A stretch of DNA of 64,000 nucleotides from an uncultured Gammaproteobacteria bacterium (GCA_964596525.1 CAZQUL010000001.1:1212312-1276311), one strand, 5' to 3'. Counted from the first letter of the stretch, positions 4,916 to 41,427 are shown. Translations and numbers: made by a program. Notes: a model not told the origin generated them from the sequence alone.

Positions 4916-5701
4916 ATGAGAAGAAATCTGGCACTTGCCCTCTTTATCAGCTGCCTATCCAGCTGCGTTGCGGAAAGTTTTCACAGTATTGTTTATCGTA
5001 CTGCGGAGCCCTTCCGTATCACCATTGGATACACCAAATTCGCCGCACCCAACGTGACAGTGATCGGCGGTATGGTAGCGCCGGCAGAATTTGTCTGCCA
5101 CAACGTGCGCAAACTGCTGCCGGACAAAAAATGCATCGTACCCAAGACGCTCAAGGAAATGACGCGGTTTGATGTCGCAAGTCCGCCACGGGGATATACG
5201 CGCAGGCAGCTTGAGGAAATGGCCGCCAAGCTCCCCTATTATCCATCGACCCTCAAGATGCTTTTCGTGGATGGTCCATCGCCCAACCGCGCGGCCAACG
5301 CCCGACACTGGCGCCCCGGACCGCTCAACAGCGAACTCGTCATTATCTACACCGCGGAAATCAACGCCAATTTCGAAGAGCTTAACCCGCGCAACACGAC
5401 CGACACAACGGAATGGCGCGAGCGACGCAATCTGTACGAGGCTAAAATTGTCGTGCATGAGATCGGACATGCACTAGGACTCGTTAACCTGGGAGTTCCC
5501 GAAAAAACACGACATCGGCACCCATACGCCAAACACCACTGCCGCAATGTTTCGTGTGTCATGCACTATGGCGTTAAAAATGTGACGAGTGCGGATTTTA
5601 CCGCATGGAAAGCACGCCATCGGGCAGTGGGATGGGAGGCAGACGTCGTGTTTGACGGATGGTGTATAGAAGATATACAAACCAGCACGAGAAAAAAATA
5701 A
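4916..5701 (+). CDS. Archaemetzincin-like (M54-type) zinc metalloprotease, predicted lipoprotein
   Basis: HEIGHALGL...H...HHC....SCVMHYG matches the archaemetzincin HExxHxxGx3CX4CXM pattern. N-terminal lipoprotein signal (LFISCLSSC). Confidence 0.6.
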   Translation: MRRNLALALFISCLSSCVAESFHSIVYRTAEPFRITIGYTKFAAPNVTVIGGMVAPAEFVCHNVRKLLPDKKCIVPKTLKEMTRFDVASPPRGYTRRQLEEMAAKLPYYPSTLKMLFVDGPSPNRAANARHWRPGPLNSELVIIYTAEINANFEELNPRNTTDTTEWRERRNLYEAKIVVHEIGHALGLVNLGVPEKTRHRHPYAKHHCRNVSCVMHYGVKNVTSADFTAWKARHRAVGWEADVVFDGWCIEDIQTSTRKK

Positions 5702-5738: not shown

Positions 5739-6041
5739 TTAGGATTTTTCAAGGCTTGCGTAACGATCGACTAACGCTTTCGCCTCATCAATTGCCTTTT
5801 TAATATTTTCATCAGCAAATGTTTCTGGCACACCTTCTACATCTTCCTCTTTACGAAAATGACCATTTATTTTTTCAAGACCGGGAAGAACTTTGGAAAT
5901 TTCGGTTACTATTCCATCCCGCTCTTCGTTCCGCGCCCAGGCATGCATCGAGGTGAGACGTTCCTGGAGTTCACCGGCGCGTTTTTGGAGCATTTCTTTT
6001 TCAAATTTGGGTTCGAACATGACTTTTTGTTCGGGGTTCAT
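5739..6041 (-). CDS. Small acidic hypothetical protein (100 aa) next to the distal end of the CRISPR array
   Basis: Uninterrupted ORF with an AT-rich upstream region; predicted helical; no recognisable family. Confidence 0.4.
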   Translation of the reverse strand: MNPEQKVMFEPKFEKEMLQKRAGELQERLTSMHAWARNEERDGIVTEISKVLPGLEKINGHFRKEEDVEGVPETFADENIKKAIDEAKALVDRYASLEKS

Positions 6042-6138: not shown

Positions 6139-7050
6139 ATCTACAAAAGTAGAAATCGAATGTATGTATTAGAGCTCGATGTTAACGATCCCACCGCCAA
6201 ATCTACAAAAGTAGAAATCGAATGTATGTATTAGAGCGGGGAGAATTGAACGTGGACAAATTATCTACAAAAGTAGAAATCGAATGTATGTATTAGAGAA
6301 CCCGGGCCTTATAAGGCCGCTCACATCTACAAAAGTAGAAATCGAATGTATGTATTAGAGAACCCGGGCCTTATAAGGCCGCTCACATCTACAAAAGTAG
6401 AAATCGAATGTATGTATTAGAGATTAATTTCCATGCCACGGGTGAACTGAATCTACAAAAGTAGAAATCGAATGTATGTATTAGAGTATTTTTGGGTGGG
6501 GGGAGTACCAACCATCTACAAAAGTAGAAATCGAATGTATGTATTAGAGCCGAGAGAAGATTCAGGAGCAAAACGCATCTACAAAAGTAGAAATCGAATG
6601 TATGTATTAGAGAAAAAGACGGTGAAAGTTTTGAGCAAGATCTACAAAAGTAGAAATCGAATGTATGTATTAGAGTTCAAGATGGCATGCCGTACGACAA
6701 TATCTACAAAAGTAGAAATCGAATGTATGTATTAGAGAAATGGTGATGATGAACGCTTATTGAAATCTACAAAAGTAGAAATCGAATGTATGTATTAGAG
6801 AGCGAGACCATCAGTTTGCGAGAAGACGATCTACAAAAGTAGAAATCGAATGTATGTATTAGAGTGGCACGACAGGAAGCGCGATTGCAATCTACAAAAG
6901 TAGAAATCGAATGTATGTATTAGAGGATCGCTGAATCAAGATGCTCTTACATCTACAAAAGTAGAAATCGAATGTATGTATTAGAGTGCTAAGAATCGCG
7001 CAAAAAAATCTGCTATCTACAAAAGTAGAAATCGAATGTATGTATTAGAG
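6139..7050 (-). CRISPR. Type V-A (Cas12a) CRISPR array of 15 repeats and 14 spacers, transcribed on the minus strand. The 36-bp repeat reads CTCTAATACATACATTCGATTTCTACTTTTGTAGAT on the transcribed strand.
   Basis: 15 exact copies of atctacaaaagtagaaatcgaatgtatgtattagag begin at 6139, 6201, 6263, 6325, 6387, 6451, 6514, 6577, 6640, 6702, 6765, 6829, 6890, 6951 and 7015. Spacers are 25-28 nt. The repeat 3' end on the minus strand is the Cas12a crRNA hairpin AUUUCUACUUUUGUAGAU. Confidence 0.95.
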
Positions 7051-7217
7051 TCCAACTTTCGCTCTGTTGAGCATAAAAAAGATACAAACCCCGCGAATGC
7101 GGCGGCGACTTTTGGGCCCAACAGAGCGAAACCGAAAAAATAAGGACGGAGGTTTTGGCAATACAGACACACCGATTTCTCCCTACCCGAAGGTAAGGCA
7201 GATTGAGTTGTCAAAGT
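7051..7217 (-). promoter_or_regulatory. CRISPR leader between cas2 and the first, newest repeat
   Basis: Non-coding 167 bp between the cas2 stop (7218) and repeat 15 (7015-7050). It contains a 12-bp inverted repeat ttcgctctgttg(7057-7068)/caacagagcgaa(7113-7124). Confidence 0.5.
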
Positions 7218-7499
7218 TCATTCAAAGACGACCACTTCTTGTTCTTCATTGACCGCGTATCCGTAACGATAGATCTTTTTTTCGCAACCAATGCACAGAG
7301 GAAATATAACAATGCTATCGGCGTTTGTAAAGTGCGGCGCATAGCTCATTTCGATCTCCGCGATGATATTGTCGAGTGCGCGCGGACTGTTCTTTATTTC
7401 GAACACCGAGTACTGCAAACGTCGTCCGTATTTCTCCAAAAATTTTGAAAAACGAGAGCGCCGACGGTTCGACTCAAAATCGTAAGAGGCGATAAACAT
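7218..7499 (-). CDS. cas2: CRISPR-associated endoribonuclease Cas2
   Basis: 93 aa with the Cas2 hallmarks MFIASYDF...RRRSRFSKFLEKYGRRLQYSVFE. Sits 3 nt downstream of the cas1 stop. Confidence 0.85.
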   Translation of the reverse strand: MFIASYDFESNRRRSRFSKFLEKYGRRLQYSVFEIKNSPRALDNIIAEIEMSYAPHFTNADSIVIFPLCIGCEKKIYRYGYAVNEEQEVVVFE

Positions 7500-7502
7500 A
7501 CG

Positions 7503-8471
7503 CTATAGCGAGAATGTCGGAAATGGTCTTTTCTGATCACTAGGCAAATCCATTTCATTGAAAATATAGAAATAGAACGAATGAATATACTTAAACACTT
7601 CTTCTTTGCGATCCATAATCGCCTGCGCGAAAATCGTTGTATATTTTTTCTGATGCTCGTACATAATTTTCCACTCCCCTTTTTCCTCAAAAAAATCTTT
7701 TTCGTCGATCTGTTTCAAGTTGTATGATTTGACGAGTTGACGCTCGATAATGCAACGCATCGGTTCCATCAAATCACAAGCCAAGGACTTACGCTGGAAG
7801 AAAAGTTTGTGGTAGAAGCCCTTATACGTATCGAGACCATGCAGCGACAGGAGAGCACCCGTAACATGGAAAAGAAACGTATAGCCGATATCGAGAAGCG
7901 TATTATTGATATCCACTTTAGTACGCGGCATACGGCGGTACCATTTTATATCCCTAAAATAAGCCTGATAAAATTCTTTACTCGCAACGCCTTCGAGACC
8001 AAGAAGCGATTCGCCACTATTGACACTCATTACTTTAGCCAATTTTTCAGCAAGCCAGTCATCGCCAATCTGGCTACGTTCTTTAAGCAAGAAGTGTTGA
8101 TTTTTAATTTTGTTGGCCACGATCAGTTTTGCCATAGTCAGTTCCTGATCCGAGGTCAGAGCGTACTGTTTGCCACGCAAGATAAAATTACCGGCGGCTT
8201 CGGACGGAATTTCGGCATAGCATTTCAAGTTGTCGCCGAGCAGGAAGATAGAAACTCCATACTCGATGCACTTACGGATGAGCGGCGAGCTGATAGTGCA
8301 CGTACCGGTAATAAAGAGCGCCAAGATTTTATGGCACGAGAGCTGGTTTATTACCTCACCATCGCGCCGCAGGCAGACGTTTTCGTTCTTGAACGAGAGG
8401 TTGTTTTCTTTAAGATCGCTGCCGTTAATAAAGAGGATCTGTTTTTCACGGAAGTCAGGTAAGCTGATCAT
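7503..8471 (-). CDS. cas1: CRISPR-associated integrase Cas1
   Basis: 322 aa with a Cas1-like fold and conserved acidic/His positions. Its ATG overlaps the cas4 stop (ATGA). Confidence 0.9.
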   Translation of the reverse strand: MISLPDFREKQILFINGSDLKENNLSFKNENVCLRRDGEVINQLSCHKILALFITGTCTISSPLIRKCIEYGVSIFLLGDNLKCYAEIPSEAAGNFILRGKQYALTSDQELTMAKLIVANKIKNQHFLLKERSQIGDDWLAEKLAKVMSVNSGESLLGLEGVASKEFYQAYFRDIKWYRRMPRTKVDINNTLLDIGYTFLFHVTGALLSLHGLDTYKGFYHKLFFQRKSLACDLMEPMRCIIERQLVKSYNLKQIDEKDFFEEKGEWKIMYEHQKKYTTIFAQAIMDRKEEVFKYIHSFYFYIFNEMDLPSDQKRPFPTFSL

Positions 8472-9034
8472 AGGTTTTCGGGCACATCATCACGGCAGAG
8501 CGGGCGGTAGATGCACTGCGCGCATTTGTTAAGATTGGTTTGGAGTTGCCAGTTAGCTGGATTGCGGTCATCGCGCATACGGGCGATGAAAGCGAAGAAT
8601 GGCTCGAGATCTTTGTCGGTCGGCCTGGCTATCGGGTAGCGCTTGTTGTCGTCGAGCGAGCGGATAACAAGGCTTTCGACCGGGCACCCCATTTCTTCAA
8701 GGCAGATCAGCTGCGCGTAGAGCTGGTAACGGTAACCGTCGAAAACCTGTTTCACTTTCTTCTTGCGTTCGATGAGTAGTTTCTTATCAGCGTCGTAGAT
8801 GTCGATCTTGCCCGCGAGCCCGTGCACATCGGAGTACACGGGCATGCCGACGCGGTAACGCTTGAGCGAAGAATACGTTCCTTTATCGATGGCTTCATGC
8901 GCGATCTTGCCAGCGGTCTGGTAATGGCTATGGTAGGTTTCGGTATTGAAGTTATCGTAGATGGTTTTGAGGTAAACCGAGCGCGGGCAGAAGATGAAGT
9001 CGTTGAGTTTAGAGATTTGGATGTAGGAGTCCAT
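8468..9034 (-). CDS. cas4: CRISPR-associated Cas4 (RecB-like nuclease with an Fe-S cluster)
   Basis: About 188 aa with a Cys at the N-terminus plus C-terminal CxxCxxxxxC (NKCAQCIYRPLC) and a RecB-nuclease core. The ATG at 9032-9034 sits 1 nt from the cas12a stop. Confidence 0.85.
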   Translation of the reverse strand: MDSYIQISKLNDFIFCPRSVYLKTIYDNFNTETYHSHYQTAGKIAHEAIDKGTYSSLKRYRVGMPVYSDVHGLAGKIDIYDADKKLLIERKKKVKQVFDGYRYQLYAQLICLEEMGCPVESLVIRSLDDNKRYPIARPTDKDLEPFFAFIARMRDDRNPANWQLQTNLNKCAQCIYRPLCRDDVPENL

Positions 9035-9035
9035 G

Positions 9036-12000
9036 TTAGGTATTGATACTAACAAATTTTTTCCAATCTCTTACAGCACTATCCCAATCTTTGTTCGAGA
9101 TAAATCCGGGATCATCATAATTTTTCCTTATCTTATACAGTTGCATTAAGCCCTTTCGCGCAATATTGTACGCCCCGTTTGCATCTCCGTTTGTAATTAC
9201 TGACAAATTACCGTTCATCTCTGATTTTCGAGAATCAAACGAACAAGACGGACACTCTATATAGTCGGCGTCGCTTCCTGTCTTTTCTTTATTGTAATTT
9301 CTTATCTGTGTAATAAGATTGAAGTAGAAAATTATTGCTTGAAAAAACTCAGTTTCCAATATTCTTCCTCTCTCCACCAATTGTTTGCTTATATCTTTCA
9401 GCTCAACACCATTCTTCTGAAATAAAGATTTCAGATTAGTTGTTATGGAGTTACTAACCCCGTCATTAAATTCAATCGTTCTACTTTCAACATCATTCCA
9501 TTTCGTCCTGGAAACATTCGAAAAAACCACATCAACTCCTTCGTAGAAATCATTCTTGCCTTTATTTTTACATTCCTGCTTCCATGCATATTCAAAACTG
9601 AAGCGATCTTTTACCGAATCATAAGAAATTTTAATATCACCAGACTTTAATAATTTAATGATCTTTTCTTTAGACTCAGAATTCTTTATGTGGAGTCTTT
9701 TGCGCCAGCCGCATTTTGGATGAGGGCAAATTTTTGATGTATAACTAGCCGGAATATAAATTACCGCACCAATCTGGTTGTTTTTCTCCATCTGTTCTAC
9801 AGAATCGATTAATGGGGTAAGCTGATATGCCCCTCTAAAATTGGCACGTTCTTTATCGACCAAATAACCAAGCTTATCAATCAAAGATTTTTCAAAAGCT
9901 TGATATACTTGCCTTTCACGGAAAAATCTTGTTTTCTTAAAATTACCACCCAGGTCTTCGAGCACGTTCAACGTGGCAATGCCTCGATCAAAACCAGAAA
10001 AAATCTCACGTGAAATCCAGTGAATTACATTACCCAGATATGCTTCCTTTAAGGATCTGATGGGCGTCATCTTTTGCCAATTCTTCTGCTCCCAGTCCCG
10101 CTGCCCTTCCCGACTTACCAATAGTTGAAAATAATCGACTGGTTCTTTTACCTCAGTGCCGTCGGCTAATTTTCTAACTTTTTCACCGACTTTATTTAAA
10201 CTTCCGCACTTGCGATCCTCAATCTCACCATATTCGTTCAAAATACAATAATAAATAAGATTATTTTCACCCCGATCCATACCTAGGATTCTTACCGGAA
10301 CTTGAGCGATAAGTTTTTTATTTATCTCTTTATTGAATTCATCTAAGTCCATCTGCTTACCGAAATTCAATCGTATTTTAAGATGTAAAATTAAAGCATC
10401 TTTTGCGAACCGCCGGTGCTGTATTACTTCTTTTTCTTTATTTCCATCTCTTTGATCAATAAAAACAATATCTTTTCCGTTTTTTTGATATGTTTTTAAC
10501 CTCACATCTTCCGTCTTTGGACGGAACCTTATTTCTGCCTTTCCATCAAGTTCGTAGATACACTTGCTTGTGTCTTTACTTTTAATATTGGCAATATTCT
10601 CTAAGCTAAAAAGTTCAAAAAAATATTGAGTAAACAGATTTACTTTAGAAGGCAGATTAGCTTGCTTATACGGATTATTTTTACCTAATTTATTTTCAAT
10701 ATCATAAAAATCTTTTGTATGTATCCTGAATAAGAAAAGGCTGCCATCTTTAATATTTTTTTGAACATAATTTTTATTTACTCTTTTCAGATCAATCCAA
10801 TAAGCCTGCCTCTGAACATGAGCAACAAAATCATCTCTATCTTTGTAGTCCTGTGGTCGTCTAAAATTTAGATTAAAGCGTCTCCAGTCGTCCCTTTTTC
10901 CTAAACAGGAAATATAATATTCGATAAGTTGATCCATTTTCTCTTTAGGAAAATTAAAATCTAATCTTTTTTCTTTTTTTCGCAGCTCCTTAAACTCGTC
11001 GTATTCTTTCTTTATGTTTATATATTTCTCTAATTTTTCTAGATCACCATCTAAAAATTCTTCGGCGAGTTTCAACTTCTTATTTTTCAATTCCTCAGGT
11101 TTTTTCTTGTCATTAGCTTTTCCAAAGGCAATGCCCTCGAATTTGCCAATATCAAGTTGTTTGTACTCTATCTTTTCATAATAATCTTCATCATCAGCTA
11201 TATTATAAGCTTCTTTAACCTCTTCAATTTTTTTGCCAAACTTTTTGTGAAATAAATCACCTCTCTTATTCCCAACACCTAAGTAATACTCATTATTCTT
11301 ACGCAGTAGAACGCCGTGATAATCTAGCTCCTTATTCATATCCCACCCATCCAAAAGATGATCGGCACCGAAGTTCAATTTAATTTCTTTTGTAGTATTC
11401 CGAGATCTCTTTTTTAGATAATTGCCAAATTTATCAAAGTAGATAAACGGAACAAAATCATCGCCTATAAACCCGTCAAATTTTTCATAAAAACCTCTAT
11501 CCTTCTCACCTTCATCGATTTTTGTTTCCTGCTCTTCATTCAACCAAAATATTTCTGCTCGTTTTACAATATCTAAGACTGCCCTTGAATAACTAAGAAC
11601 AGCGAGACAGAAATCCCCTTCGTCCTCATCTCTCATTTTTTCATCATTCTTAACTTTATCCTCAAACCATCTGATTGCTTTTTCCAAAACAATCTTTTTC
11701 TGCTCCAAAGGAATTACGGCCTCCTTTTTTCCTCCCATGACTATCGTTTCGCCTCCTAAAATCAATAAATCTACCTCATGTTTCAAAAGTGAGATGAAGA
11801 CCTCAAACTGATCTCTATTTTCAGCGATATTATCAAAGGAATTTTTATATTCCAATCGGTTATTTTTAAAAAAATTCTTGATATCATCAAAAGTAACAAG
11901 GTCTAAAACAGTCCGCCCGTCATGAAAAATAGCCATAAATTTTTCCGGTTCTCGAAAAATCTTATTTGCAAATGTATTTACTTTATTCTTCGCCAAAAAG

Positions 12001-13235
12001 ACTTTGGAAAGATTTATCCCATTCTTATCATGATCCAAAAAGAAGGATAGCAGGCCCTGGGCTTTTGCAACTTTTTCTTCACTATGTACCAAAAAGAAAT
12101 TCAATTCACGGATCAAATCAGAATCATTCTCAATGAATATTTCTTTTCGAAAGATCTGAGAAAGAATTCTTTTCTGCAGACGTACAAAAAAGGGATATTC
12201 CCTTTTGTTAAACTTACTTCTTTCTTGACCTTTTTTCTTCTGTTTTTGAAGTTCCTTATGTTCGCTCTGTTTTTTTTGAATATAAAGGTTAACAACCTGA
12301 TTAAGACCAATACCACTTACCATCCTTTCTTTTTTATGAGATTCACCACCTAAAATTCTTGCATAGTTATCAATACCTTGCTGGGTAATGCAGTTATTAT
12401 AATAGTCAACGTCAAAAATACCAGGCTTCTCGTCTTCATTATTTCGACACAATCTCTCCGTGATTAACGAAAAATCAATATCAGTATTTTTATAGTTATC
12501 TTGGTAATTTTTTATATTCTTGTAAAAGAGCTCAAAATTACTCAAAATCCTTTCACTCAAAGACCCCTTCTTACCTTTTACCGAATAAAGAAGTTCTCTC
12601 TTTTTACAGAAATCAGCTAAATACCCAGCGTCCATTTCAAAAATATTTTTTGGACTACCCTGTTTATCTTGATATTCAATATCAGGAAATTCTAGCTCTT
12701 TATGGTTATTTTTTTCTCGTAAATCCTTTACTTCAGCTGAAGTAAAGCTCTCTTTTAATTTTAAAAGGCATTTTTTTGGAGATAAGTCGTCCGCTCCCGC
12801 CTTTTTAAAAACTCTATCAATTTGCTCTAGCAGAGCACCTTGAGCGAGCAAGAGCCTAGTTTTTAATTCTTTAATTTTCATCTTCTTTTCATTTTTATCA
12901 GAATCTTTATCTTTTTTACCTTGAGCCAAGGCATCTAAAGCAGCGGCATAGTTGAGCAGGTCTTTCTTCTCAAAATTTAAACTTCTCAACGAATTATCAA
13001 TAATCTTTCGATGTAGAATATCTAAATAAAATTTAACAACCTTAATATTCTCGGCCATTTTCTTATCAGCTTCGATAATTCCATGGCTTTTTAAAGCACT
13101 CCATTCTTCATCTTCAACCAGCTCATTAGTTCTATCATCTACTTTCAAGGGGACGAGCCTAAATTGAAGAGTTCTGGATAATTCGTATAAATTTTTAAAC
13201 TCCTCAATCTTACCAACTCCTTTTTCTTTTGACAT
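9036..13235 (-). CDS. cas12a: Cas12a (Cpf1) type V-A effector nuclease, about 1399 aa from ATG 13235 (1407 aa from an alternative TTG at 13259)
   Basis: N-terminal LYELSRTLQFRLVPL matches the Cas12a WED motif (compare LSKTLRFELIP). RuvC-I is LGMDRGENNLIYY, RuvC-II is VLEDLGGNFKKTRF, and RuvC-III/Nuc is NGDANGAYNIARKG. Gene order is cas12a-cas4-cas1-cas2-array. The gene is strongly AT-rich. Confidence 0.92.
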   Translation of the reverse strand: MSKEKGVGKIEEFKNLYELSRTLQFRLVPLKVDDRTNELVEDEEWSALKSHGIIEADKKMAENIKVVKFYLDILHRKIIDNSLRSLNFEKKDLLNYAAALDALAQGKKDKDSDKNEKKMKIKELKTRLLLAQGALLEQIDRVFKKAGADDLSPKKCLLKLKESFTSAEVKDLREKNNHKELEFPDIEYQDKQGSPKNIFEMDAGYLADFCKKRELLYSVKGKKGSLSERILSNFELFYKNIKNYQDNYKNTDIDFSLITERLCRNNEDEKPGIFDVDYYNNCITQQGIDNYARILGGESHKKERMVSGIGLNQVVNLYIQKKQSEHKELQKQKKKGQERSKFNKREYPFFVRLQKRILSQIFRKEIFIENDSDLIRELNFFLVHSEEKVAKAQGLLSFFLDHDKNGINLSKVFLAKNKVNTFANKIFREPEKFMAIFHDGRTVLDLVTFDDIKNFFKNNRLEYKNSFDNIAENRDQFEVFISLLKHEVDLLILGGETIVMGGKKEAVIPLEQKKIVLEKAIRWFEDKVKNDEKMRDEDEGDFCLAVLSYSRAVLDIVKRAEIFWLNEEQETKIDEGEKDRGFYEKFDGFIGDDFVPFIYFDKFGNYLKKRSRNTTKEIKLNFGADHLLDGWDMNKELDYHGVLLRKNNEYYLGVGNKRGDLFHKKFGKKIEEVKEAYNIADDEDYYEKIEYKQLDIGKFEGIAFGKANDKKKPEELKNKKLKLAEEFLDGDLEKLEKYINIKKEYDEFKELRKKEKRLDFNFPKEKMDQLIEYYISCLGKRDDWRRFNLNFRRPQDYKDRDDFVAHVQRQAYWIDLKRVNKNYVQKNIKDGSLFLFRIHTKDFYDIENKLGKNNPYKQANLPSKVNLFTQYFFELFSLENIANIKSKDTSKCIYELDGKAEIRFRPKTEDVRLKTYQKNGKDIVFIDQRDGNKEKEVIQHRRFAKDALILHLKIRLNFGKQMDLDEFNKEINKKLIAQVPVRILGMDRGENNLIYYCILNEYGEIEDRKCGSLNKVGEKVRKLADGTEVKEPVDYFQLLVSREGQRDWEQKNWQKMTPIRSLKEAYLGNVIHWISREIFSGFDRGIATLNVLEDLGGNFKKTRFFRERQVYQAFEKSLIDKLGYLVDKERANFRGAYQLTPLIDSVEQMEKNNQIGAVIYIPASYTSKICPHPKCGWRKRLHIKNSESKEKIIKLLKSGDIKISYDSVKDRFSFEYAWKQECKNKGKNDFYEGVDVVFSNVSRTKWNDVESRTIEFNDGVSNSITTNLKSLFQKNGVELKDISKQLVERGRILETEFFQAIIFYFNLITQIRNYNKEKTGSDADYIECPSCSFDSRKSEMNGNLSVITNGDANGAYNIARKGLMQLYKIRKNYDDPGFISNKDWDSAVRDWKKFVSINT

Positions 13236-13268
13236 ATGATATGACTTAAAAAATAACAAAAATCAAAA

Positions 13269-25077: not shown

Positions 25078-25219
25078 AAAAGAAAATCTAAAAGCAATAT
25101 CGTATCGTCACTATACTACACTCCCCTGCCACGTAAAACCAAGGTTCGCTGGGTGTGTTGACAGATGCCTTTTTTTGGGCTACATTCAGCGCACCACACC
25201 CGTGCAACAGGGGGTTCAC

Positions 25220-26551
25220 ATGATGCCCACAAAAGGTTTCGTCATCAAAGATATTACCGAAATAAAGGGACCGGGAATCATCGCCAGCCTGCGCAATGCA
25301 GCACGGTTGGCGCGCGATCCTGTGCAGTTTATCAGCCGGTTAAAGGCGGACAACCCGCGGCAATCAATCATTCCTCTTGCTGCATTTGGCCGCCGCCGAG
25401 CAGTGGCGATCCTCAACAAAGAGATGGGCGAAGAAATTCTGCGCAACCCGCACTTCGGACAGGCTGGAGTGCTCATGCGCATCCTGGGGAAAAAATTCGG
25501 CCAGAAAGGCCCCTTTACCTGGGATAGCGAAGAGGTGCGCGGGATAATTCGACCGCTCTTTCACAAAGACGAGCTTCTGAACGGGGCGAAAGCCATGCTG
25601 CTGCATAACGAGCTTATGCGGTTCGTAGAAAAACTCGAGATCGCGAGCGAACGGATGGAAACGATTGACATCCTGAAGATGTCCAAAGCCGCATCGATCG
25701 CCATCGTGTGCAACATCATTCTGGGCGCGCAGTGGAACGATGAGACGATACAACAGTGCGGGCAGGATATGGAAGAAATGGTGCTCGCCACGTTTGAAAG
25801 CATGATGAATCCGCTCTCGATCATTTCACCGCGCCGATACCTGCAGGTACGGAAGATGGTAGAGCGCCAACACAAGCTCATCTACGAGCTTATGAACGAA
25901 GCGAGCACCCCCGGAATCCTTACCGCCCACTCGCTCCTCACGAAGTTGCGCCAAGGCGGAGCGATCGACAACGAAACCATGTTCAGCGTGCTCATCCAGC
26001 TGCTCGTTGCTGGGCATGAAACAACGGCGAGCGCACTTGCCCACCTCACGCAACACCTCGCCATCCACAAAGATATGTATGAGGACAGCGGACTCAAAGC
26101 CGAAGCGCGCAAACTCGTTGCGATCGATCCGGGGAGCGACTGGACGTACCGCGATTTCCCGGCGCTAGCGCGCGTCGTCAGCGAAGTTATCATGACATAC
26201 CCGCCGATCATCTCGGTATTCCGCGCCGCCACGCAAGACACGCTGGTGCGGCACACGCGAGAAGAGTCATACCGTTTTAATGCCGGGACGCTCGTGTATC
26301 TGCCGCTCCTCGATTACAGCCACACGGAACTTGTAGCCGGACGCGTGCCGGCAAACCCGCTTGCAACATTGACCTTCAGCAGCGGGGTTCATAAATGCCC
26401 GGGCAATATCTTTGCAGTGCGACTGCTTACGATGACGCTCGCGACACTCATCCACCGCCGCATCCGTTTCAGCATTATCTCAACCCAAGGATACACCGCG
26501 CACCTAGCCTACAAGCCGCGCGGCCTCGCCATGAAAGTTTACCGGTCGTAG
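25220..26551 (+). CDS. Cytochrome P450 monooxygenase
   Basis: I-helix LLVAGHETTASAL (AGxETT) and haem-binding loop FSSGVHKCPGNIFA (FxxGxxxCxG). Confidence 0.8.
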   Translation: MMPTKGFVIKDITEIKGPGIIASLRNAARLARDPVQFISRLKADNPRQSIIPLAAFGRRRAVAILNKEMGEEILRNPHFGQAGVLMRILGKKFGQKGPFTWDSEEVRGIIRPLFHKDELLNGAKAMLLHNELMRFVEKLEIASERMETIDILKMSKAASIAIVCNIILGAQWNDETIQQCGQDMEEMVLATFESMMNPLSIISPRRYLQVRKMVERQHKLIYELMNEASTPGILTAHSLLTKLRQGGAIDNETMFSVLIQLLVAGHETTASALAHLTQHLAIHKDMYEDSGLKAEARKLVAIDPGSDWTYRDFPALARVVSEVIMTYPPIISVFRAATQDTLVRHTREESYRFNAGTLVYLPLLDYSHTELVAGRVPANPLATLTFSSGVHKCPGNIFAVRLLTMTLATLIHRRIRFSIISTQGYTAHLAYKPRGLAMKVYRS

Positions 26552-34453: not shown

Positions 34454-36403
34454 TTAACGTGCCTGGAAACGGATTGCGTTGCCCCCTGTGCCGCCGGTTG
34501 TGAAGGCGCGGGTTGCGCCGCTCGCTCCAGTACCAAACGGTAGAACGCTTTGCTGCCGATTCGCAGGAGCCGCCGAAGAAGCCGTAGTCGGCACAATGGT
34601 GCGGCTGACGATGGTCATACCTTCAGTAAGGCCGCTCGTAATTTCTACCACTTCGCCGTTGTCGAGGCCGGTTGTGACGGGAACTTGACGCGGCGCTTCT
34701 GAGAGCTCAACGCCTTGGAGGTTTGTACCGGCAGGCGGATTATCGACGACTTCGACATAACGTTCTTCGCCAAAACTTTTGACCGCGGCGGCTGGAACGG
34801 TGATAACGTCATTTTTGAGGGAAGTAATAATTTGAGCGGAGACGCTCATGCCGTTTTTAATCCGCGCGTCGTTGGTATCGAAGCTCATGGTTACGCCGTA
34901 GCTCACAACACCTTGGCTCACCGTGCCGATCGGATCGATTTCGGTGACTTTACCGGTGATCGTCACACCGTCAATAGCATCAAAGCTCAGCGTGGCTTTT
35001 TGGCCAACCTTAACCTGGGCAACATCGACTTCGTTGAGCGTGATCGCAGCGGTGTATTGGTCGGAGACTACGGTAAAAGCCACGGTTCCAGCGGAAACGG
35101 ATTCGCCTTTTTTGATACTGACTGAAGCGATTTTGCCTGCTACCGGCGAGGTAATGGTGTAGTTGGCAAGCTCGGCCCTGGCATCGCGGAGTGCATTGCG
35201 GCGAGAAGTGAGCGTAAGTTCTTGGGAGCGTACGTCGAGTGGGTCAGGCGGCGTCGTGAGCTTGGCAAGTGAGAGTTCGCGCTCGGCGATGCGGCGCTCG
35301 GCCTGAGTTTTGGCCAAAGGTTCGGTAACAGCAAGCTTACTTAGGGCAGATTCAGCATCGCGAAGCGTCTGACCTGCCTGCTTAATGGTTTTTTGAAGTG
35401 ATAAAAGTTTGGTTACATGGCTGTTGTTGGTGGACGTAAATGAGTCAAGTTGAGAGATGTGGGTTTTTATGATCGCCGGAACGGCGGTGGAAAAACCGGG
35501 TTTGCGGATAATGTCATCAACAAAATCGATATACGTATGGGTAGTCTTGAGCGCATCAGCGGTAAACTGGGTAAGTTTGTACGTGTCGTTAATAAGACGT
35601 TCAGTCTCCGCGGGGACGGCAGAGGCGCGATTCATGGTCTTAAAACGCGCCAAAATTTCGTCGTAGAGGACGCGTACCCGTTCGTAAGCAGTAGCAACAT
35701 CGGTGCGATACATCACGACCTCGGGATTCGTAAGATTGACCTGGTTGGCATACCAATCGATATTGTTGGAACGAGAATCAATGGAGGAGGAGTACAAAAT
35801 ATCCTTAAGCCCGGAAATGACTGACGGCAAATCCAAAAAAGCGTCGGTGACGGCGCTGAAACCTTCTTCGTACGTTTCATTCTCTGTGAGGATGGCCTCC
35901 TGCTTTTGATCTTCGAGCTTCTGGCGGTTTTCAGCTTGCGTAAGAAGGAGTGTTTTCAAATCTTCTTTGGCCTGGGCAACCGCATGCTCAGCTTCGGTAC
36001 GCGACAAGGTGTCAGGTGGTTGCTTGAATTTATCATAGCTTACCTGCGCGCTTTGGAGTGAAAGCTCGGCATCGCGAATGGTGCGCATAACGTCCCGAGT
36101 ATCGATTTTAGCGAGTGTGGTCGTGGGAGTTATTTTTTGGCCGAGAACGGCGGTGAGGCTCGTTATGGCACCCGAGGCTTTGGGTTTTACTTCCATCGTG
36201 TAGGCGGTCGAAACTTGGCCACTGCCTGATACCGTAGAAACCACTGCGCCGCGCTCGACCGAGGCAAGAACGTAACGGACCGTTTCGGTGGTAGCGAACG
36301 CAGAGCGGTACCAGACAACAGAGCCACCGCCCACCGCGACAACAGCTAGACTGATAATCCACACTTTATGGCGGATAAACAAGGGGTATAATCGTTCACG
36401 CAT
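34454..36403 (-). CDS. HlyD/MacA-type periplasmic adaptor (membrane fusion protein), long form
   Basis: N-terminal TM helix, extended coiled coil, beta-barrel/lipoyl-like segments and a Gly/Thr-rich C-terminus. Sits 5 nt upstream of the FtsX permease. Confidence 0.7.
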   Translation of the reverse strand: MRERLYPLFIRHKVWIISLAVVAVGGGSVVWYRSAFATTETVRYVLASVERGAVVSTVSGSGQVSTAYTMEVKPKASGAITSLTAVLGQKITPTTTLAKIDTRDVMRTIRDAELSLQSAQVSYDKFKQPPDTLSRTEAEHAVAQAKEDLKTLLLTQAENRQKLEDQKQEAILTENETYEEGFSAVTDAFLDLPSVISGLKDILYSSSIDSRSNNIDWYANQVNLTNPEVVMYRTDVATAYERVRVLYDEILARFKTMNRASAVPAETERLINDTYKLTQFTADALKTTHTYIDFVDDIIRKPGFSTAVPAIIKTHISQLDSFTSTNNSHVTKLLSLQKTIKQAGQTLRDAESALSKLAVTEPLAKTQAERRIAERELSLAKLTTPPDPLDVRSQELTLTSRRNALRDARAELANYTITSPVAGKIASVSIKKGESVSAGTVAFTVVSDQYTAAITLNEVDVAQVKVGQKATLSFDAIDGVTITGKVTEIDPIGTVSQGVVSYGVTMSFDTNDARIKNGMSVSAQIITSLKNDVITVPAAAVKSFGEERYVEVVDNPPAGTNLQGVELSEAPRQVPVTTGLDNGEVVEITSGLTEGMTIVSRTIVPTTASSAAPANRQQSVLPFGTGASGATRAFTTGGTGGNAIRFQAR

Positions 36404-39675: not shown

Positions 39676-41427
39676 TTATTTCTCACCAGCCTCTTTTTTG
39701 GAGACGACGACATCTTGGCCGGCAATAAGGCCTTCGGTAATTTCGAGGCGGCCTTCGTTGGCGCGCAAGCCGGTTTTTACGGCAACTTCTTTTTCCGCGC
39801 CGTTTTCGAGAACAAGTACATAGCGGCGATCATCGGCTCCCGTACGCACAACGCGAGTGGGCACCGAGAGAACATTATCTTTCTTTTCGGTCAGAATGCT
39901 GACGTTGGCGGTCATGCCAGGTTTGACGGGCAACGTGGTAGGATCAAGACGAATGCGGACACGGTAATAGACGACATCTTGCACAAGCGTTGCCGCCGGA
40001 TCGATGGTGACCACCTGGCCGGTGAATTTGGTGTCCGGACCAAAAGCATCAAGTACGATCGTGACCGTATCGTTCAGAGTCAATTTGGGCACATCGACTT
40101 CCTGCACATCAACCTGCACTTCGTAGCGCGGCGAAAGGAGTTTGAAGACTATGTCAGCGCTCGAGACCAGTTCACCGACTTTTTTGGCGACTTTGGTAAC
40201 CTGACCGTCGATCGGAGCGCGAATATAGGCTTTTTCGCGATTGGCCACCGCCTGGGCGAGCGAAGCACGCAGCGGAGCGACATCGACAGCGCGGGGAGGG
40301 TTGAGCTTTGCTTGAAGATTAGCAAAGGCCTGCTTGTAAGCAGCTTCCCGAATACTGATGATATTGGTTGCATTAGCCTTAATCTGATCACGCGTGGTAA
40401 CTGCTTTGTTGTACGCGATGCGTAATGACGTTACGCTGTTTTTAGCATTCACGATAGCTTGCTTTTGGGCGACACTGGCGGTAAGTTCAGCCGAAACGCT
40501 CGTGCGGGCAAGTTGAATGGAAGATTTAAAACCATCAAGCAAAGCTTGGGTGAGCGTGCCACCGGGAACGCTGTTAGCCAAAACTTCACTCACGTCAGCA
40601 AGAAGAGCAAGGGTCGCCTGCTGCATAGCTTCGGCTTTCTGCAGGCTTTCATCAATAAGGTCATGGCTTGAAGCTGAAGTAAGCGTGCTGATACGGGAAC
40701 GAGCAGCATCACGAGCAGCTTTGGCCGTGCCGTAGGATAAGCGGGCCTGGTTAAGGGCGGCCGGATTGGCAGTAGAGAGATATGGCTGGAACGACGCCGC
40801 GCCAGTGATATTGTCGACACCGAGCACGTTATCGGCCTGAACGATCGCATCGTCGATTTTGGGAAGCGAAGACTGCAGAGCGGTCACCGCTTTTTCATAG
40901 GCCTGGGTTATAACAACACTCGTACCGGTACTTTCAGCAAGACGCAAATTGTTTTCCGCAGTTAAAACCGCAGCCTCAGCATCGGCAAGAGAGGTTTGTG
41001 TGTCGATTTTAGCCTGGTTTAAAGCAGCTTCAGCCGACTGCACGGCGGATTGATAGTATGTTTTATCTTCGTTCGTAACCGGAGCGAGGCGCTGATTGAG
41101 AGATGCCTGAGCCTGGGCAACGGCAGCGTTAAACTCTGACAAACGCAAATTACCCAAAAGCGTTCCAGCTTTGACGTTCATGCCTTCTTTTACCGTAACA
41201 TTCGCTAAAAGGCCTGGGACTTCAAAGCGGAGGGACAAATCATCAACCGCTTCGAGCTTACCCGTAGCATCTACAGTCTGAAGCAGCGTGCCCTGCTCGA
41301 CTTTGACGGTTTCGTAGGTCGGTGGCGCGTTTTTTTGCTGGTAACTACGATATGAAAAAGCACCCACGATAAGCACGATAATTACCGGGATGTACACTTT
41401 CTTTTGAAGAAAAAACGACAATGACAT
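39676..41427 (-). CDS. HlyD-family periplasmic adaptor (second paralogue)
   Basis: N-terminal TM helix, long Ala/Gln-rich coiled coil and C-terminal beta-barrel segments (GQDVVVSKKEAGEK). Confidence 0.7.
   Translation of the reverse strand: MSLSFFLQKKVYIPVIIVLIVGAFSYRSYQQKNAPPTYETVKVEQGTLLQTVDATGKLEAVDDLSLRFEVPGLLANVTVKEGMNVKAGTLLGNLRLSEFNAAVAQAQASLNQRLAPVTNEDKTYYQSAVQSAEAALNQAKIDTQTSLADAEAAVLTAENNLRLAESTGTSVVITQAYEKAVTALQSSLPKIDDAIVQADNVLGVDNITGAASFQPYLSTANPAALNQARLSYGTAKAARDAARSRISTLTSASSHDLIDESLQKAEAMQQATLALLADVSEVLANSVPGGTLTQALLDGFKSSIQLARTSVSAELTASVAQKQAIVNAKNSVTSLRIAYNKAVTTRDQIKANATNIISIREAAYKQAFANLQAKLNPPRAVDVAPLRASLAQAVANREKAYIRAPIDGQVTKVAKKVGELVSSADIVFKLLSPRYEVQVDVQEVDVPKLTLNDTVTIVLDAFGPDTKFTGQVVTIDPAATLVQDVVYYRVRIRLDPTTLPVKPGMTANVSILTEKKDNVLSVPTRVVRTGADDRRYVLVLENGAEKEVAVKTGLRANEGRLEITEGLIAGQDVVVSKKEAGEK

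What the first reader, a model, noticed from the sequence alone, without database searches (positions are those of the whole stretch)
6139..13259. Complete, compact type V-A CRISPR-Cas12a locus (cas12a-cas4-cas1-cas2-leader-array) embedded in a GC-rich, CPR-like chromosome
Every element of a functional Cas12a system is present and tightly coupled.
- A 1399-1407-aa Cas12a carries an intact RuvC-I D (MDRGE), RuvC-II E (LEDLG) and RuvC-III D (GDANGAY), plus the WED N-terminal motif LSRTLQFRLVPL.
- cas4 starts 1 nt after the cas12a stop; cas1 overlaps the cas4 stop (ATGA); cas2 follows 3 nt later.
- A leader of about 167 bp precedes 15 identical 36-bp repeats whose transcribed 3' half, AUUUCUACUUUUGUAGAU, is the Cas12a crRNA pseudoknot.
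- At about 1400 aa the effector is longer than the characterised FnCas12a and LbCas12a, implying lineage-specific insertions.
- Cas12a orthologues from small-genome candidate-phyla bacteria have been a source of genome-editing enzymes, so a new divergent orthologue with its native array is of practical interest.
Basis: partly seen in the sequence, partly recalled or inferred. Interest (0 to 1): 0.85.

Follow-up and report, generated by a model that had tools for sequence, protein, structure and literature searches.

The report
Complete Cas12a CRISPR locus, CPR bacterium
This is a real, complete and apparently working Cas12a (type V-A) CRISPR immune system in a small-genome candidate-phyla bacterium. 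It is an uncharacterised member of a well-known family, from a side branch that keeps an ancestral zinc-binding motif and lacks the usual residues for cutting its own guide RNA.

Summary
The order is cas12a (1399 aa), cas4, cas1, cas2, a 167-bp leader, then 15 identical 36-nt repeats with 14 spacers.

All four proteins pass the curated type V-A models. The RuvC D/E/D triad and the Nuc arginine are intact. The repeat ends in the canonical Cas12a hairpin. The host is CPR (Magasanikbacteria-like), and the protein is already in NCBI.

So this is a new member of a known kind, not a new system. Length is not special: families of about 1400 aa are already published, and the extra residues are about a dozen short loops.

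- **Zinc ribbon kept.** The protein belongs to a minority Cas12a branch that retains a CxnC…CxxC zinc ribbon split by the Nuc domain.
- **Guide-processing residues missing.** That branch lacks the His-Lys-Lys pre-crRNA RNase triad (here Q939 followed by H940).
- **Modules exchanged.** Near-identical cas2-leader-repeat modules occur elsewhere with Cas12a only 33-41% identical, and cas12a GC3 is 0.31 against 0.70 for cas4.

No protospacer was found, so the PAM is unknown. Interest is moderate (about 0.4), not 0.85.

The parts
9036..13235 (-). cas12a, 1399 aa plus stop. An alternative in-frame TTG start lies at 13259.
   Evidence: ORF. TIGR04330 scores 409.5 bits against a cutoff of 300. PADLOC Cas12a scores 690 bits. 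PDB Cas12a matches reach 3e-79. The exact 1399-aa sequence is in NCBI.
13146..13181 (-). N-terminal WED motif LSRTLQFRLVPL, residues 19-30.
   Evidence: Aligns to the family consensus LSKTLRFELKP.
11328..11348 (-). GWDMNKE motif in WED-II. K635 is the equivalent of the PAM-contacting WED lysine.
   Evidence: The column is K in 67 of 77 sequences. The GWxxxK motif is noted as PAM-related in PMC7757703.
10362..10544 (-). WED-III pre-crRNA processing loop, residues 898-958. It contains no His, and it reads 937-VIQHRRF where canonical Cas12a has I-K-D-[KR]-R-[FY].
   Evidence: HMMER alignments to Mb, Lb2, ReChb and As Cas12a. MAFFT alignments of 77 and 201 sequences. The His count in the loop is 0.
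10275..10277 (-). RuvC-I catalytic Asp, D987, in MDRGE.
   Evidence: Aligns to LbCas12a D832. The column is D in 76 of 77 sequences.
10014..10100 (-). Bridge-helix region, residues 1046-1074, RDWEQKNWQKMTPIRSLKEAYLGNVIHWI.
   Evidence: Aligns without insertion to the bridge helix of Lb, ReChb and Mb Cas12a.
9957..9959 (-). RuvC-II catalytic Glu, E1093, in LEDLG.
   Evidence: Aligns to LbCas12a E925. The column is E in 77 of 77 sequences.
9711..9728 (-). Zinc-ribbon knuckle 1, C1170-x4-C1175 (TSKICPHPKC).
   Evidence: Pfam gives a weak Cas12f1-like TNB hit at 1157-1182.
9300..9302 (-). Nuc-domain arginine, R1312, in QIRNY.
   Evidence: Aligns to the Arg of the LbCas12a motif LQMRNS in the alignment. 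The column is R in 76 of 77 sequences.
9243..9254 (-). Zinc-ribbon knuckle 2, C1328-x2-C1331 (IECPSCSF). It lies 152 residues after knuckle 1, with the Nuc domain inserted between them.
9183..9185 (-). RuvC-III catalytic Asp, D1351, in GDANGAY.
   Evidence: Aligns to LbCas12a D1180. The column is D in 77 of 77 sequences.
8468..9034 (-). cas4, 188 aa. It has a RecB-type nuclease motif and four Cys (C16, and C-x2-C-x5-C at the C-terminus).
   Evidence: cas4_PREFRAN scores 208 bits against a cutoff of 70. Sequence. GC3 is 0.70.
7503..8471 (-). cas1, 322 aa.
   Evidence: cas1_PREFRAN scores 302.6 bits against a cutoff of 300. Pfam Cas_Cas1 E-value is 6e-49.
7218..7499 (-). cas2, 93 aa.
   Evidence: TIGR01573 and PF09827. 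Proteins 89-91% identical occur in other metagenomes.
7051..7217 (-). Leader, 167 bp.
   Evidence: It is about 85-90% conserved in loci L010 and L013-L015.
7057..7131 (-). Nested hairpin inside the leader. It has a 16-bp outer stem, an A/U stem and a GC hairpin followed by a T-run. It ends a few nt before repeat 1.
   Evidence: Inverted repeat I1. RNA fold of -39.8 kcal/mol with z = -5.3. Conserved in related loci.
6139..7050 (-). CRISPR array: 15 identical 36-nt repeats and 14 spacers of 25-28 nt. Spacers 11 and 12 are identical.
   Evidence: The repeat 3' hairpin is shown.

Best explanation
This is a bona fide, probably active type V-A CRISPR-Cas adaptive immune locus in a CPR (Patescibacteria, Magasanikbacteria-like) chromosome.

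**Inferred working, from the established Cas12a mechanism**
1. Cas4, Cas1 and Cas2 capture PAM-flanked DNA fragments. They insert them at the leader-proximal repeat, whose ends carry the TCTA...TAGA palindrome needed by the Francisella V-A integrase.
2. The array is transcribed from the leader side.
3. Each repeat's 3' 19 nt (GAUUUCUACUUUUGUAGAU) folds into the Cas12a 5'-handle pseudoknot and is bound by the WED/RuvC/REC lobes.
4. The crRNA-Cas12a complex recognises a 5' PAM through the WED and PI domains.
5. It cleaves both DNA strands with the single RuvC site (D987, E1093, D1351), helped by the Nuc domain (R1312).

**Shown here**
Gene content, family membership, intact catalytic residues, the repeat structure, and identical repeats with variable spacers.

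**Inferred, not shown**
Expression, DNA cleavage, PAM and crRNA maturation.

The effector belongs to a minority Cas12a branch that keeps a four-Cys zinc ribbon clamping the base of the Nuc domain. That branch lacks the His/Lys/Lys pre-crRNA RNase triad. Maturation therefore probably uses a different residue set (candidates Y916, R/K residues, H940-R941-R942) or a host RNase.
For: - **Family models.** Curated V-A models are passed by all four proteins.
- **Sequence and fold matches.** Full-length HMMER alignments to solved Cas12a reach 3e-79. The AF2 model has pLDDT 84.8 and pTM 0.82, and its top 50 PDB matches are all Cas12a.
- **Catalytic residues.** D/E/D/R are conserved. The bridge helix is present without insertion. 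The Nuc domain is present (PF18510 precomputed; 152 aa between the Zn knuckles).
- **PAM-related features.** A PI-like domain and the GWDMNKE motif are present.
- **Array.** There are 15 perfect repeats with the canonical hairpin and the TCTA/TAGA termini, whose importance for V-A integration is reported in PMC13034035.
- **Operon.** The genes are tightly coupled.
- **No self-targeting.** No spacer matches the window itself.
- **Precedent for atypical processing.** SuCas12a2 has a shorter processing loop, and alanine substitutions of basic residues in it (K784/R785) abolished pre-crRNA processing (bioRxiv 10.1101/2022.06.13.495973).
Against: - No protospacer was found for any spacer. INPHARED phages and PLSDB plasmids were searched with all 13 unique spacers. 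IMG/VR was searched with 8 spacers. JGI metagenomes were searched with 2 spacers. The targets and the PAM are therefore unknown.
- The single 20/25 hit, L009, has a GC-rich 5' flank and five 3' mismatches in a row. It is probably chance.
- The FnCas12a RNase residues H843/K852/K869 (the HKK mutant, PMC9508855) are not conserved.
- The PI-domain motif KMLPK is not conserved.
- No promoter consensus was found in the leader.
- There are no expression or activity data.
Confidence: 0.85

Rival explanations
1. The effector is a genuine DNA-cutting Cas12a but cannot mature its own pre-crRNA. It lacks the His-Lys-Lys RNase site, so the array is processed by a host ribonuclease or is used inefficiently. 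This is a sub-variant of the main explanation, not exclusive of it.
For: - There is no His anywhere in the processing loop.
- The K869 equivalent is Q939, robustly anchored by the conserved RRF and 'LHLKI' strand in four independent pairwise alignments and two MSAs.
- In 201 full-length representatives, none of the 37 zinc-ribbon Cas12a has His at the H843 column, and 29 of 37 lack K869.
- Within the branch the residues at these positions are not uniform (D, K, H, E, N, R), which argues against a single conserved replacement.
Against: - The repeat keeps the exact handle and the upstream context that Cas12a cleaves.
- The clade conserves Y-[QK]-K and [QE]-H-R-R-F, so His, Tyr, Lys and Arg candidates lie next to the canonical positions.
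- SuCas12a2 has a shorter loop, and K784/R785 substitutions abolished its processing.
- Metal-independent 2'-OH transesterification needs only a few well-placed basic residues (general knowledge).
Confidence: 0.2
2. The zinc ribbon marks this protein as a Cas12a2- or Cas12a3-like effector. It would recognise RNA targets and trigger collateral nuclease activity (abortive infection) rather than site-specific dsDNA cleavage.
For: - It has four conserved Cys in the TNB position, as in Cas12a2, Cas12a3 and Cas12g.
- It shares the Cas12a-type repeat, which Cas12a2 also uses.
- Its processing site is non-canonical, with a short-loop precedent in Cas12a2.
Against: - Cas12a2 is defined by a large domain replacing the bridge helix and by a compact zinc finger replacing the Nuc domain, with Cys at 1170/1173/1188/1191 (14 residues between the two CxxC knuckles). 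Here the bridge helix aligns without insertion, and the two knuckles are 152 aa apart with a Pfam NUC domain and the Nuc Arg between them.
- Cas12a3 shares only 10-20% identity with Cas12a and is 1099-1226 aa. This protein is 27-31% identical over 99% of canonical Cas12a and passes the equivalog cutoff.
- No Cas12a2 or Cas12a3 chain appears in the PDB sequence search at E<=10 or in the top 50 structural matches.
- A Cas4-containing, PAM-selecting adaptation module is present.
Confidence: 0.04
3. The locus is a recently transferred or decaying passenger that is no longer used: a silent array and a non-functional effector.
For: - cas12a GC is 0.34 and GC3 0.31, against host values of about 0.52 and 0.56-0.63.
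- No spacer match was found anywhere.
- A duplicated spacer is present.
- No sigma-70-like promoter was found in the leader.
Against: - All four ORFs are intact and translationally coupled.
- All catalytic residues are conserved.
- All 15 repeats are identical, including the last one, which is usually the first to decay.
- The same contig was assembled from two sequencing runs with identical cas genes.
- CPR phages are badly under-sampled, so missing protospacers are expected.
Confidence: 0.06

Closest known systems
Canonical Cas12a/Cpf1 of type V-A (FnCas12a, LbCas12a, AsCas12a, MbCas12a; NCBIfam TIGR04330)
   Same: - Same operon order: cas12a-cas4-cas1-cas2-leader-array.
- Same 36-nt repeat length and the 3' handle AUUUCUAC-UUUU-GUAGAU.
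- Same domain order: WED, REC1/2, PI, RuvC-I, bridge helix, RuvC-II, Nuc, RuvC-III.
- Conserved D/E/D and Nuc Arg, and the GWxxxK motif.
   Different: - Only 23-29% identity to solved structures, and 27-31% to database Cas12a outside its own clade.
- It keeps four zinc-ligand Cys where canonical enzymes have D/T/S/x.
- It lacks the H843/K852/K869 triad.
- The PI motif KMLPK is not conserved.
- It has G instead of A at handle position -19 (sequence).
- It carries about 135 extra residues in short loops.
Uncharacterised CPR Cas12a clade: Saccharibacteria MAG CAYGHQ010000027 (L003/P0002), Gribaldobacteria PEWP01000046 (L002/P0005), P0003, P0004, P0204, P0205
   Same: - 54-65% identity and lengths of 1399-1425 aa.
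- The same Cx4C...CxxC knuckles, the same '[QE]HRRF' motif, and the same handle with a 4-nt loop.
   Different: - The window's cas4, cas1 and cas2 are only 51%, 48% and 60% identical to those of L003.
- The leader and the repeat 5' half also differ from L003.
Cas12a-M57 family and PeCpf1 (KKP36646.1), the published Cas12a of about 1400 aa (Goltsman et al. 2020, PMC7757703)
   Same: Large size (about 1400 aa), a repeat with a 4-nt loop, and environmental or CPR origin.
   Different: - M57 proteins have '...SPV...' at knuckle 2, so they have no zinc ribbon, and their N-terminus differs.
- The PADLOC Cas12a_M57 model scores only 261 bits, against 690 bits for the best Cas12a model.
- They are a separate lineage.
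Cas12a2 (SuCas12a2) and Cas12a3 (BaCas12a3)
   Same: Type V effectors with a Cas12a-like repeat, a zinc ribbon near the RuvC site, and a processing site without the canonical triad.
   Different: - They lack the Nuc domain insert. Cas12a2 replaces the bridge helix with a large domain, and Cas12a3 has a tRNA-loading domain.
- Both are RNA-activated collateral nucleases.
- No detectable sequence or top-50 structural match to them was found here.

Membership tests
Cas12a (type V-A effector) | Scores above the curated equivalog threshold of TIGR04330 cas_Cpf1 | tested here: met
   409.5 bits against a cutoff of 300. PADLOC Cas12a scores 690 bits over the full length.
Cas12a (type V-A effector) | A single RuvC nuclease site with the D/E/D triad, split into RuvC-I, II and III | tested here: met
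   D987, E1093 and D1351 align to LbCas12a D832, E925 and D1180. The columns are invariant or nearly so across 77 and 201 homologues.
Cas12a (type V-A effector) | Nuc domain inserted between RuvC-II and RuvC-III, with its conserved arginine | tested here: met
   PF18510 NUC is precomputed for the protein. R1312 is conserved. The model region has pLDDT of 85-96.
Cas12a (type V-A effector) | Bridge helix directly after RuvC-I, not replaced by another domain | tested here: met
   Residues 1046-1074 align without gaps to the bridge helix of ReChb, Lb and Mb Cas12a.
Cas12a (type V-A effector) | PAM-interacting domain and WED lysine (GWxxxK) | tested here: inconclusive
   PF22222 PI-like has E = 1.5e-8, and GWDMNKE is conserved. 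The PI motif KMLPK is not conserved, and the PI lysine is alignable only with a one-column shift.
Cas12a (type V-A effector) | Self-processing of pre-crRNA by the WED-domain His/Lys/Lys site (Fn H843, K852, K869) | tested here: not met
   The residues are not conserved. There is no His in the loop, and K869 is replaced by Q939. The activity itself was not tested. The same residues are also absent in 23 of 164 non-zinc-ribbon Cas12a representatives, so the triad is typical rather than strictly defining.
Cas12a (type V-A effector) | tracrRNA-independent crRNA with a repeat-derived 5' handle pseudoknot (UCUAC-N3-5-GUAGAU at the repeat 3' end) | tested here: met
   The repeat ends in GAUUUCUACUUUUGUAGAU, and the hairpin is predicted. 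The motif definition is from PMC7757703. Absence of a tracrRNA was not specifically searched for.
Cas12a (type V-A effector) | RNA-guided, PAM-dependent staggered dsDNA cleavage | not testable with these tools
   This needs biochemistry. No protospacers were found from which to infer a PAM.
Type V-A CRISPR-Cas locus | An adaptation module of cas4, cas1 and cas2 of the PREFRAN subtype, next to the effector and the array | tested here: met
   cas4_PREFRAN scores 208 (cutoff 70), cas1_PREFRAN 302.6 (cutoff 300), and cas2 is present. The order and spacing are confirmed.
Cas12a2 | A large domain in place of the bridge helix, and a compact zinc finger (two CxxC about 14 aa apart) in place of the Nuc domain | tested here: not met
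   The bridge helix is intact and the knuckles are 152 aa apart with the Nuc domain between them. There is no PDB sequence hit at E<=10 and none in the structural top 50.
Cas12a3 | An independent clade with 10-20% identity to Cas12a, 1099-1226 aa, and a tRNA-loading domain beside RuvC | tested here: not met
   Identity to canonical Cas12a is 27-31% over 99% of the length, and the protein is 1399 aa. No extra domain was detected: insertions are at most 17 aa.

The most novel reading that the evidence does not exclude
About one fifth of Cas12a sequence clusters, including this CPR clade, may form a distinct, ancestral-like V-A sub-lineage.

In that lineage the Nuc domain is still clamped by the TnpB-type zinc ribbon. 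Guide maturation would not use the textbook His-Lys-Lys site. It would use either a relocated catalytic set (H940/R941/R942, Y916) or host RNases.

In this lineage, effectors are also swapped as cassettes onto a conserved cas2-leader-repeat chassis.
Probability: 0.25. Interest if true: 0.55.

Novelty: new member of a known kind. Interest (0 to 1): 0.4.

Why it matters
**Practical value.** This is one more divergent Cas12a orthologue with its native guide. It shares at most 65% identity with anything deposited and 23-29% with solved enzymes. Its PI domain is diverged, so it may read a different PAM.

**Biological value.** The more interesting points are secondary.
- It documents a Cas12a branch that keeps the ancestral zinc ribbon together with the Nuc insert. 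That is a plausible intermediate between TnpB-like or Cas12a2-like zinc-ribbon nucleases and the canonical zinc-less Cas12a.
- The same branch has lost, or never had, the canonical guide-processing residues. Whether self-processing is universal in Cas12a could be tested directly with this enzyme.
- The locus is a clean natural example of effector and adaptation-module exchange on an almost unchanged leader-repeat.

None of this overturns current understanding.

Tried and rejected
- **Protospacer and PAM search.** All 13 unique spacers were concatenated and run with blastn against INPHARED phages and PLSDB plasmids, with no match at E<=1. Exact 20-24-nt seeds of spacers 1, 2, 3, 4, 6, 10, 11 and 14 were run against IMG/VR. 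Seven gave nothing.
- **The one IMG/VR hit.** Spacer 3 gave one 20/25 hit on L009, with 5' flank TCCCGCGC and its last 5 nt all mismatched. I rejected it as probably chance, by my own rough estimate of collection size against a 20-mer.
- **Metagenome scans.** Spacers 1 and 2 were run against JGI metagenomes, with nothing found.
- **Self-targeting.** No spacer matches the window at up to 5 mismatches.
- **A novel inserted domain as the reason for the length.** Rejected: the largest clade-specific insertion is 17 aa.
- **Identity with the published Cas12a-M57 family of about 1400 aa.** Rejected on motif and model-score grounds.
- **Cas12a2 or Cas12a3 identity.** Rejected.
- **Rfam.** Gathering thresholds give only three tRNAs elsewhere in the window and no CRISPR-DR family hit.
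- **Mobile-element borders.** No convincing direct or inverted repeats flank the low-GC segment, and no integrase or transposase is nearby.
- **Literature.** Searches for a description of zinc-ribbon Cas12a, or of Cas12a lacking H843/K869, returned only the Cas12a2 and Cas12a3 papers. This library omits most subscription journals. Zetsche et al. 2015 was requested under a PMC id recalled from memory and nothing was held under that id.
- **Tool limits.** The full-length protein exceeded the 1200-aa limit of the exhaustive search and the structure predictor, so residues 560-1399 were used.

Full report

- The ORF list and translations give cas12a at 13235..9036 (1399 aa from the ATG, or 1407 aa from an upstream TTG), cas4 at 9034..8468 (188 aa), cas1 at 8471..7503 (322 aa) and cas2 at 7499..7218 (93 aa).
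- The junctions are as described. There is 1 nt between the cas12a stop and the cas4 ATG, an ATGA overlap of cas4 and cas1, and a 3-nt gap before cas2.
- A 167-bp leader (7217..7051) precedes 15 exact copies of CTCTAATACATACATTCGATTTCTACTTTTGTAGAT (7050..6139), separated by 14 spacers of 25-28 nt.
- Spacers 11 and 12 are identical. No further degenerate repeat exists in the window.
- The last 15 nt of the repeat fold into the 5-bp stem with 4-nt loop.

This cannot be chance.

**2. Identity of the proteins.**

- NCBIfam places all four in the type V-A (PREFRAN) subtype above the curated cutoffs: cas_Cpf1 409.5/300, cas4_PREFRAN 208/70, cas1_PREFRAN 302.6/300, cas2 42.5/24.5.
- Pfam finds REC1, Cpf1 PI-like and RuvC_1. 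PADLOC's best Cas12a model covers residues 9-1386 with 690 bits.
- Against PDB sequences, the only hits up to E = 10 are 26 Cas12a sequences (ReChb 3e-79; Mb, Lb2, Fn, Lb, As from 1e-68 to 1e-48) and one spurious hit. No Cas12a2 or Cas12a3 chain appears.
- HMMER alignments to LbCas12a put D987 on D832, E1093 on E925 and D1351 on D1180, and put R1312 on the Arg of the LbCas12a motif LQMRNS.
- In a 77-sequence alignment these columns are D 76/77, E 77/77, D 77/77 and R 76/77.
- An AlphaFold2 model of residues 560-1399 has mean pLDDT 84.8 and pTM 0.82. Its 50 best Foldseek matches in the PDB are all Cas12a, with TM normalised to the query of 0.53-0.63 and 22-29% identity.

**3. Host and public status.**

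- The exact 1399-aa protein, Cas1 and Cas2 are already in NCBI on a 1,343,778-bp contig, without a name in the collection searched. They also occur on short-read assemblies of two runs, in which the array is collapsed to one repeat.
- The window's RecJ is 62-65% identical to proteins named Candidatus Magasanikbacteria or Patescibacteria. 'CPR-like' is therefore right.
- 'GC-rich' is relative. The window outside the locus is 51.7% GC.

**4. Where it sits among Cas12a.**

- The closest proteins are 64% (Saccharibacteria MAG), 59%, 58% and 54% (Gribaldobacteria) identical. Identity then drops to about 30%.
- An exhaustive HMMER scan of 1.84 billion cluster representatives with residues 560-1399 found 652 proteins at E<=1e-30. 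Only two were at 50% identity or more (61% and 60%), and the next was 43%.
- The clade is therefore small and uncharacterised, but clearly inside Cas12a.
- Its length is not unprecedented. Goltsman et al. describe family Cas12a-M57 (about 1400 aa on average, 4-nt loop), which groups with PeCpf1 KKP36646.1 (PMC7757703).
- M57 is a different lineage. It has no Cys at the second knuckle, and the PADLOC M57 model scores 261 bits against 690 for the best model.
- The surplus length is about 135 residues in 12 clade-specific insertions of 6-17 aa, many of them Lys-rich. None is a domain. The poorly modelled segments coincide with such loops.

**5.

(a) *Zinc ribbon.*
- C1170/C1175 (TSKICPHPKC) and C1328/C1331 (IECPSCSF) occupy columns that are D/T/S/x in most Cas12a.
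- In an NJ tree of 77 homologues, the 14 proteins with four Cys form one deep branch. That branch contains this clade.
- In 201 full-length representatives, 37 have at least three of the four Cys.
- Where both knuckles could be located automatically (25 of the 36 zinc-branch proteins examined), they are 132-187 residues apart, so the Nuc domain is inserted into the ribbon.
- In SuCas12a2 the four Cys span only residues 1170-1191, and the zinc finger replaces the Nuc domain.

(b) *Pre-crRNA RNase site.*
- FnCas12a H843/K852/K869 is the catalytic site for processing (the HKK mutant, PMC9508855).
- Canonical sequences show ...H..N..I..KN...F.YD.IKD.RY.... This clade has KTYQKNGK...NKEKEVIQHRRF.
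- There is no His in the whole loop. The K869 equivalent is Q939 (E in the Gribaldobacteria protein), followed by a conserved His.
- The K869 position is anchored by the flanking RRF and beta-strand in four pairwise HMMER alignments and two MSAs. The H843 and K852 equivalents are less certain, reading Q/I in one MSA and Y/R in the other.
- None of the 37 zinc-ribbon representatives has His at the H843 column, and 29 lack K869. By contrast, 134 of 164 others have both.
- The two traits therefore co-vary. I found no paper describing this, but the searchable library is incomplete.
- The consequence is an inference. Processing may use other residues (SuCas12a2 has a shorter loop, and K784/R785 substitutions abolished its processing), or it may use a host RNase.

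**6. Rival: Cas12a2 or Cas12a3-like RNA-triggered nuclease.** The zinc ribbon raises this possibility, but the defining features are not met.
- The bridge helix is intact.
- The Nuc domain and its Arg are present.
- Identity to Cas12a is far above the 10-20% reported for Cas12a3.
- There is no sequence or structural match to those proteins.

**7. Targets and PAM.** No spacer matched INPHARED phages or PLSDB plasmids, the window itself, IMG/VR (8 spacers) or JGI metagenomes (2 spacers). The only exception is a 20/25 match with a non-T-rich flank, which I regard as chance. The WED GWDMNKE lysine is conserved, but the PI motif KMLPK is not. The PAM cannot be predicted.

**8. Module exchange (seen in passing, followed up).**

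- GC3 is 0.31 for cas12a, 0.70 for cas4, 0.52 for cas1 and cas2, and 0.56-0.63 for host genes. The jump from 0.31 to 0.70 occurs across a 1-nt intergenic gap.
- Loci L010 and L012-L015, from other metagenomes, carry Cas2 89-91%, Cas4 78-79% and Cas1 66-68% identical to the window's. They also carry an 85-90% identical leader and a repeat that differs only in its first three bases.
- Their Cas12a is only 33-41% identical. It belongs to another subclade of the zinc-ribbon branch, with 'DHKRY' at the processing site.
- Conversely L003, whose Cas12a is 65% identical, has Cas4, Cas1 and Cas2 at 51%, 48% and 60%, and a different leader and repeat 5' half.
- The effector and the adaptation/leader/repeat modules therefore have different histories. 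The only part of the repeat shared by all is the 3' handle that Cas12a binds.

**9. Leader structure.**

- Positions 7057-7131 form a nested hairpin: a 16-bp outer stem, an A/U stem, and a GC hairpin followed by TTTGTATCTTTTTT. It ends a few nucleotides upstream of repeat 1. The fold is -39.8 kcal/mol with z = -5.3.
- It is conserved in L010-L015. The same architecture, with a different inner hairpin sequence, is present in L003.
- With so few independent sequences the covariation evidence is weak: 2 of 28 pairs show compensatory changes.
- It could be the terminator of the cas operon, an architectural element for integration, or both. In Francisella only 3 leader nt plus the terminal TCTA palindromes of the repeat were needed in vitro (PMC13034035). 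The window's repeat has TCTA...TAGA.

**10. Verdict.** This is a genuine, complete and probably active type V-A CRISPR-Cas12a locus. It is a new, uncharacterised member of a known kind, already deposited. It has three moderately interesting lineage features: a retained split zinc ribbon, a missing canonical RNase triad, and effector/adaptation module exchange. Confidence in the main explanation is 0.85 and interest is 0.4.

Noticed in passing
window 7218-13235; loci L010, L012-L015, L003: The cas operon is a compositional and phylogenetic mosaic. GC3 is 0.31 for cas12a, 0.70 for cas4 and 0.52 for cas1 and cas2. Other metagenomic loci share Cas2 at 89-91%, Cas4 at 78% and Cas1 at 67%, with a near-identical leader and repeat, but their Cas12a is only 33-41% identical. 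The locus with the closest Cas12a (65%) has more distant adaptation proteins. This indicates effector/adaptation module exchange.
   Followed up: yes
window 7057-7131 (minus strand, inside the leader): A strong nested hairpin (-39.8 kcal/mol, z = -5.3) has a GC hairpin and T-run at its core and ends just upstream of the first repeat. It is conserved in related loci, and the architecture is kept with a different inner sequence in L003. It may be a cas-operon terminator and/or an integration-site architectural element.
   Followed up: partly
window 6299-6386: Spacers 11 and 12 are identical (GTGAGCGGCCTTATAAGGCCCGGGTT). Each contains a perfect 14-nt palindrome, GGCCTTATAAGGCC. This points to a repeat-spacer unit duplication or a double acquisition.
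   Followed up: no
window 9243-9254 and 9711-9728; proteins P0007-P0012, P0016, P0029, P0078 and others: About 18% (37 of 201) of full-length Cas12a cluster representatives keep a four-Cys zinc ribbon. Where both knuckles could be located, it is split by the Nuc domain. The same proteins lack the His of the pre-crRNA RNase triad, and most also lack the K869 equivalent. All keep D/E/D/R.
   Followed up: yes
window 5739-6041 (minus) and 4916-5701 (plus), just downstream of the array: Two ORFs of 100 aa and 261 aa have no Pfam or PADLOC hit. The 100-aa ORF is AT-rich (GC3 0.37) like cas12a, and it is called as a gene in the public assemblies. Its function is unknown.
   Followed up: no
loci L001 and L008 (short-read assemblies of the same organism): The 15-repeat array of the window is collapsed to a single repeat in the short-read contigs. 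Spacer content cannot be compared between samples from those assemblies.
   Followed up: partly
window 34454-36403 and 39676-41427: Two long periplasmic-adaptor (HlyD/RND membrane-fusion) proteins, a cytochrome P450-like ORF (25175-26551) and a sensor histidine kinase (49170-50843) are present. These are somewhat unexpected in a 1.3-Mb CPR genome.
   Followed up: no
locus L003, 9507-10352: In the Saccharibacteria relative there is an ~850-bp gap, containing a 134-aa ORF, between cas12a and cas4. In the window these two genes are 1 nt apart. This is a possible accessory gene or a scar of recombination at the module junction.
   Followed up: no
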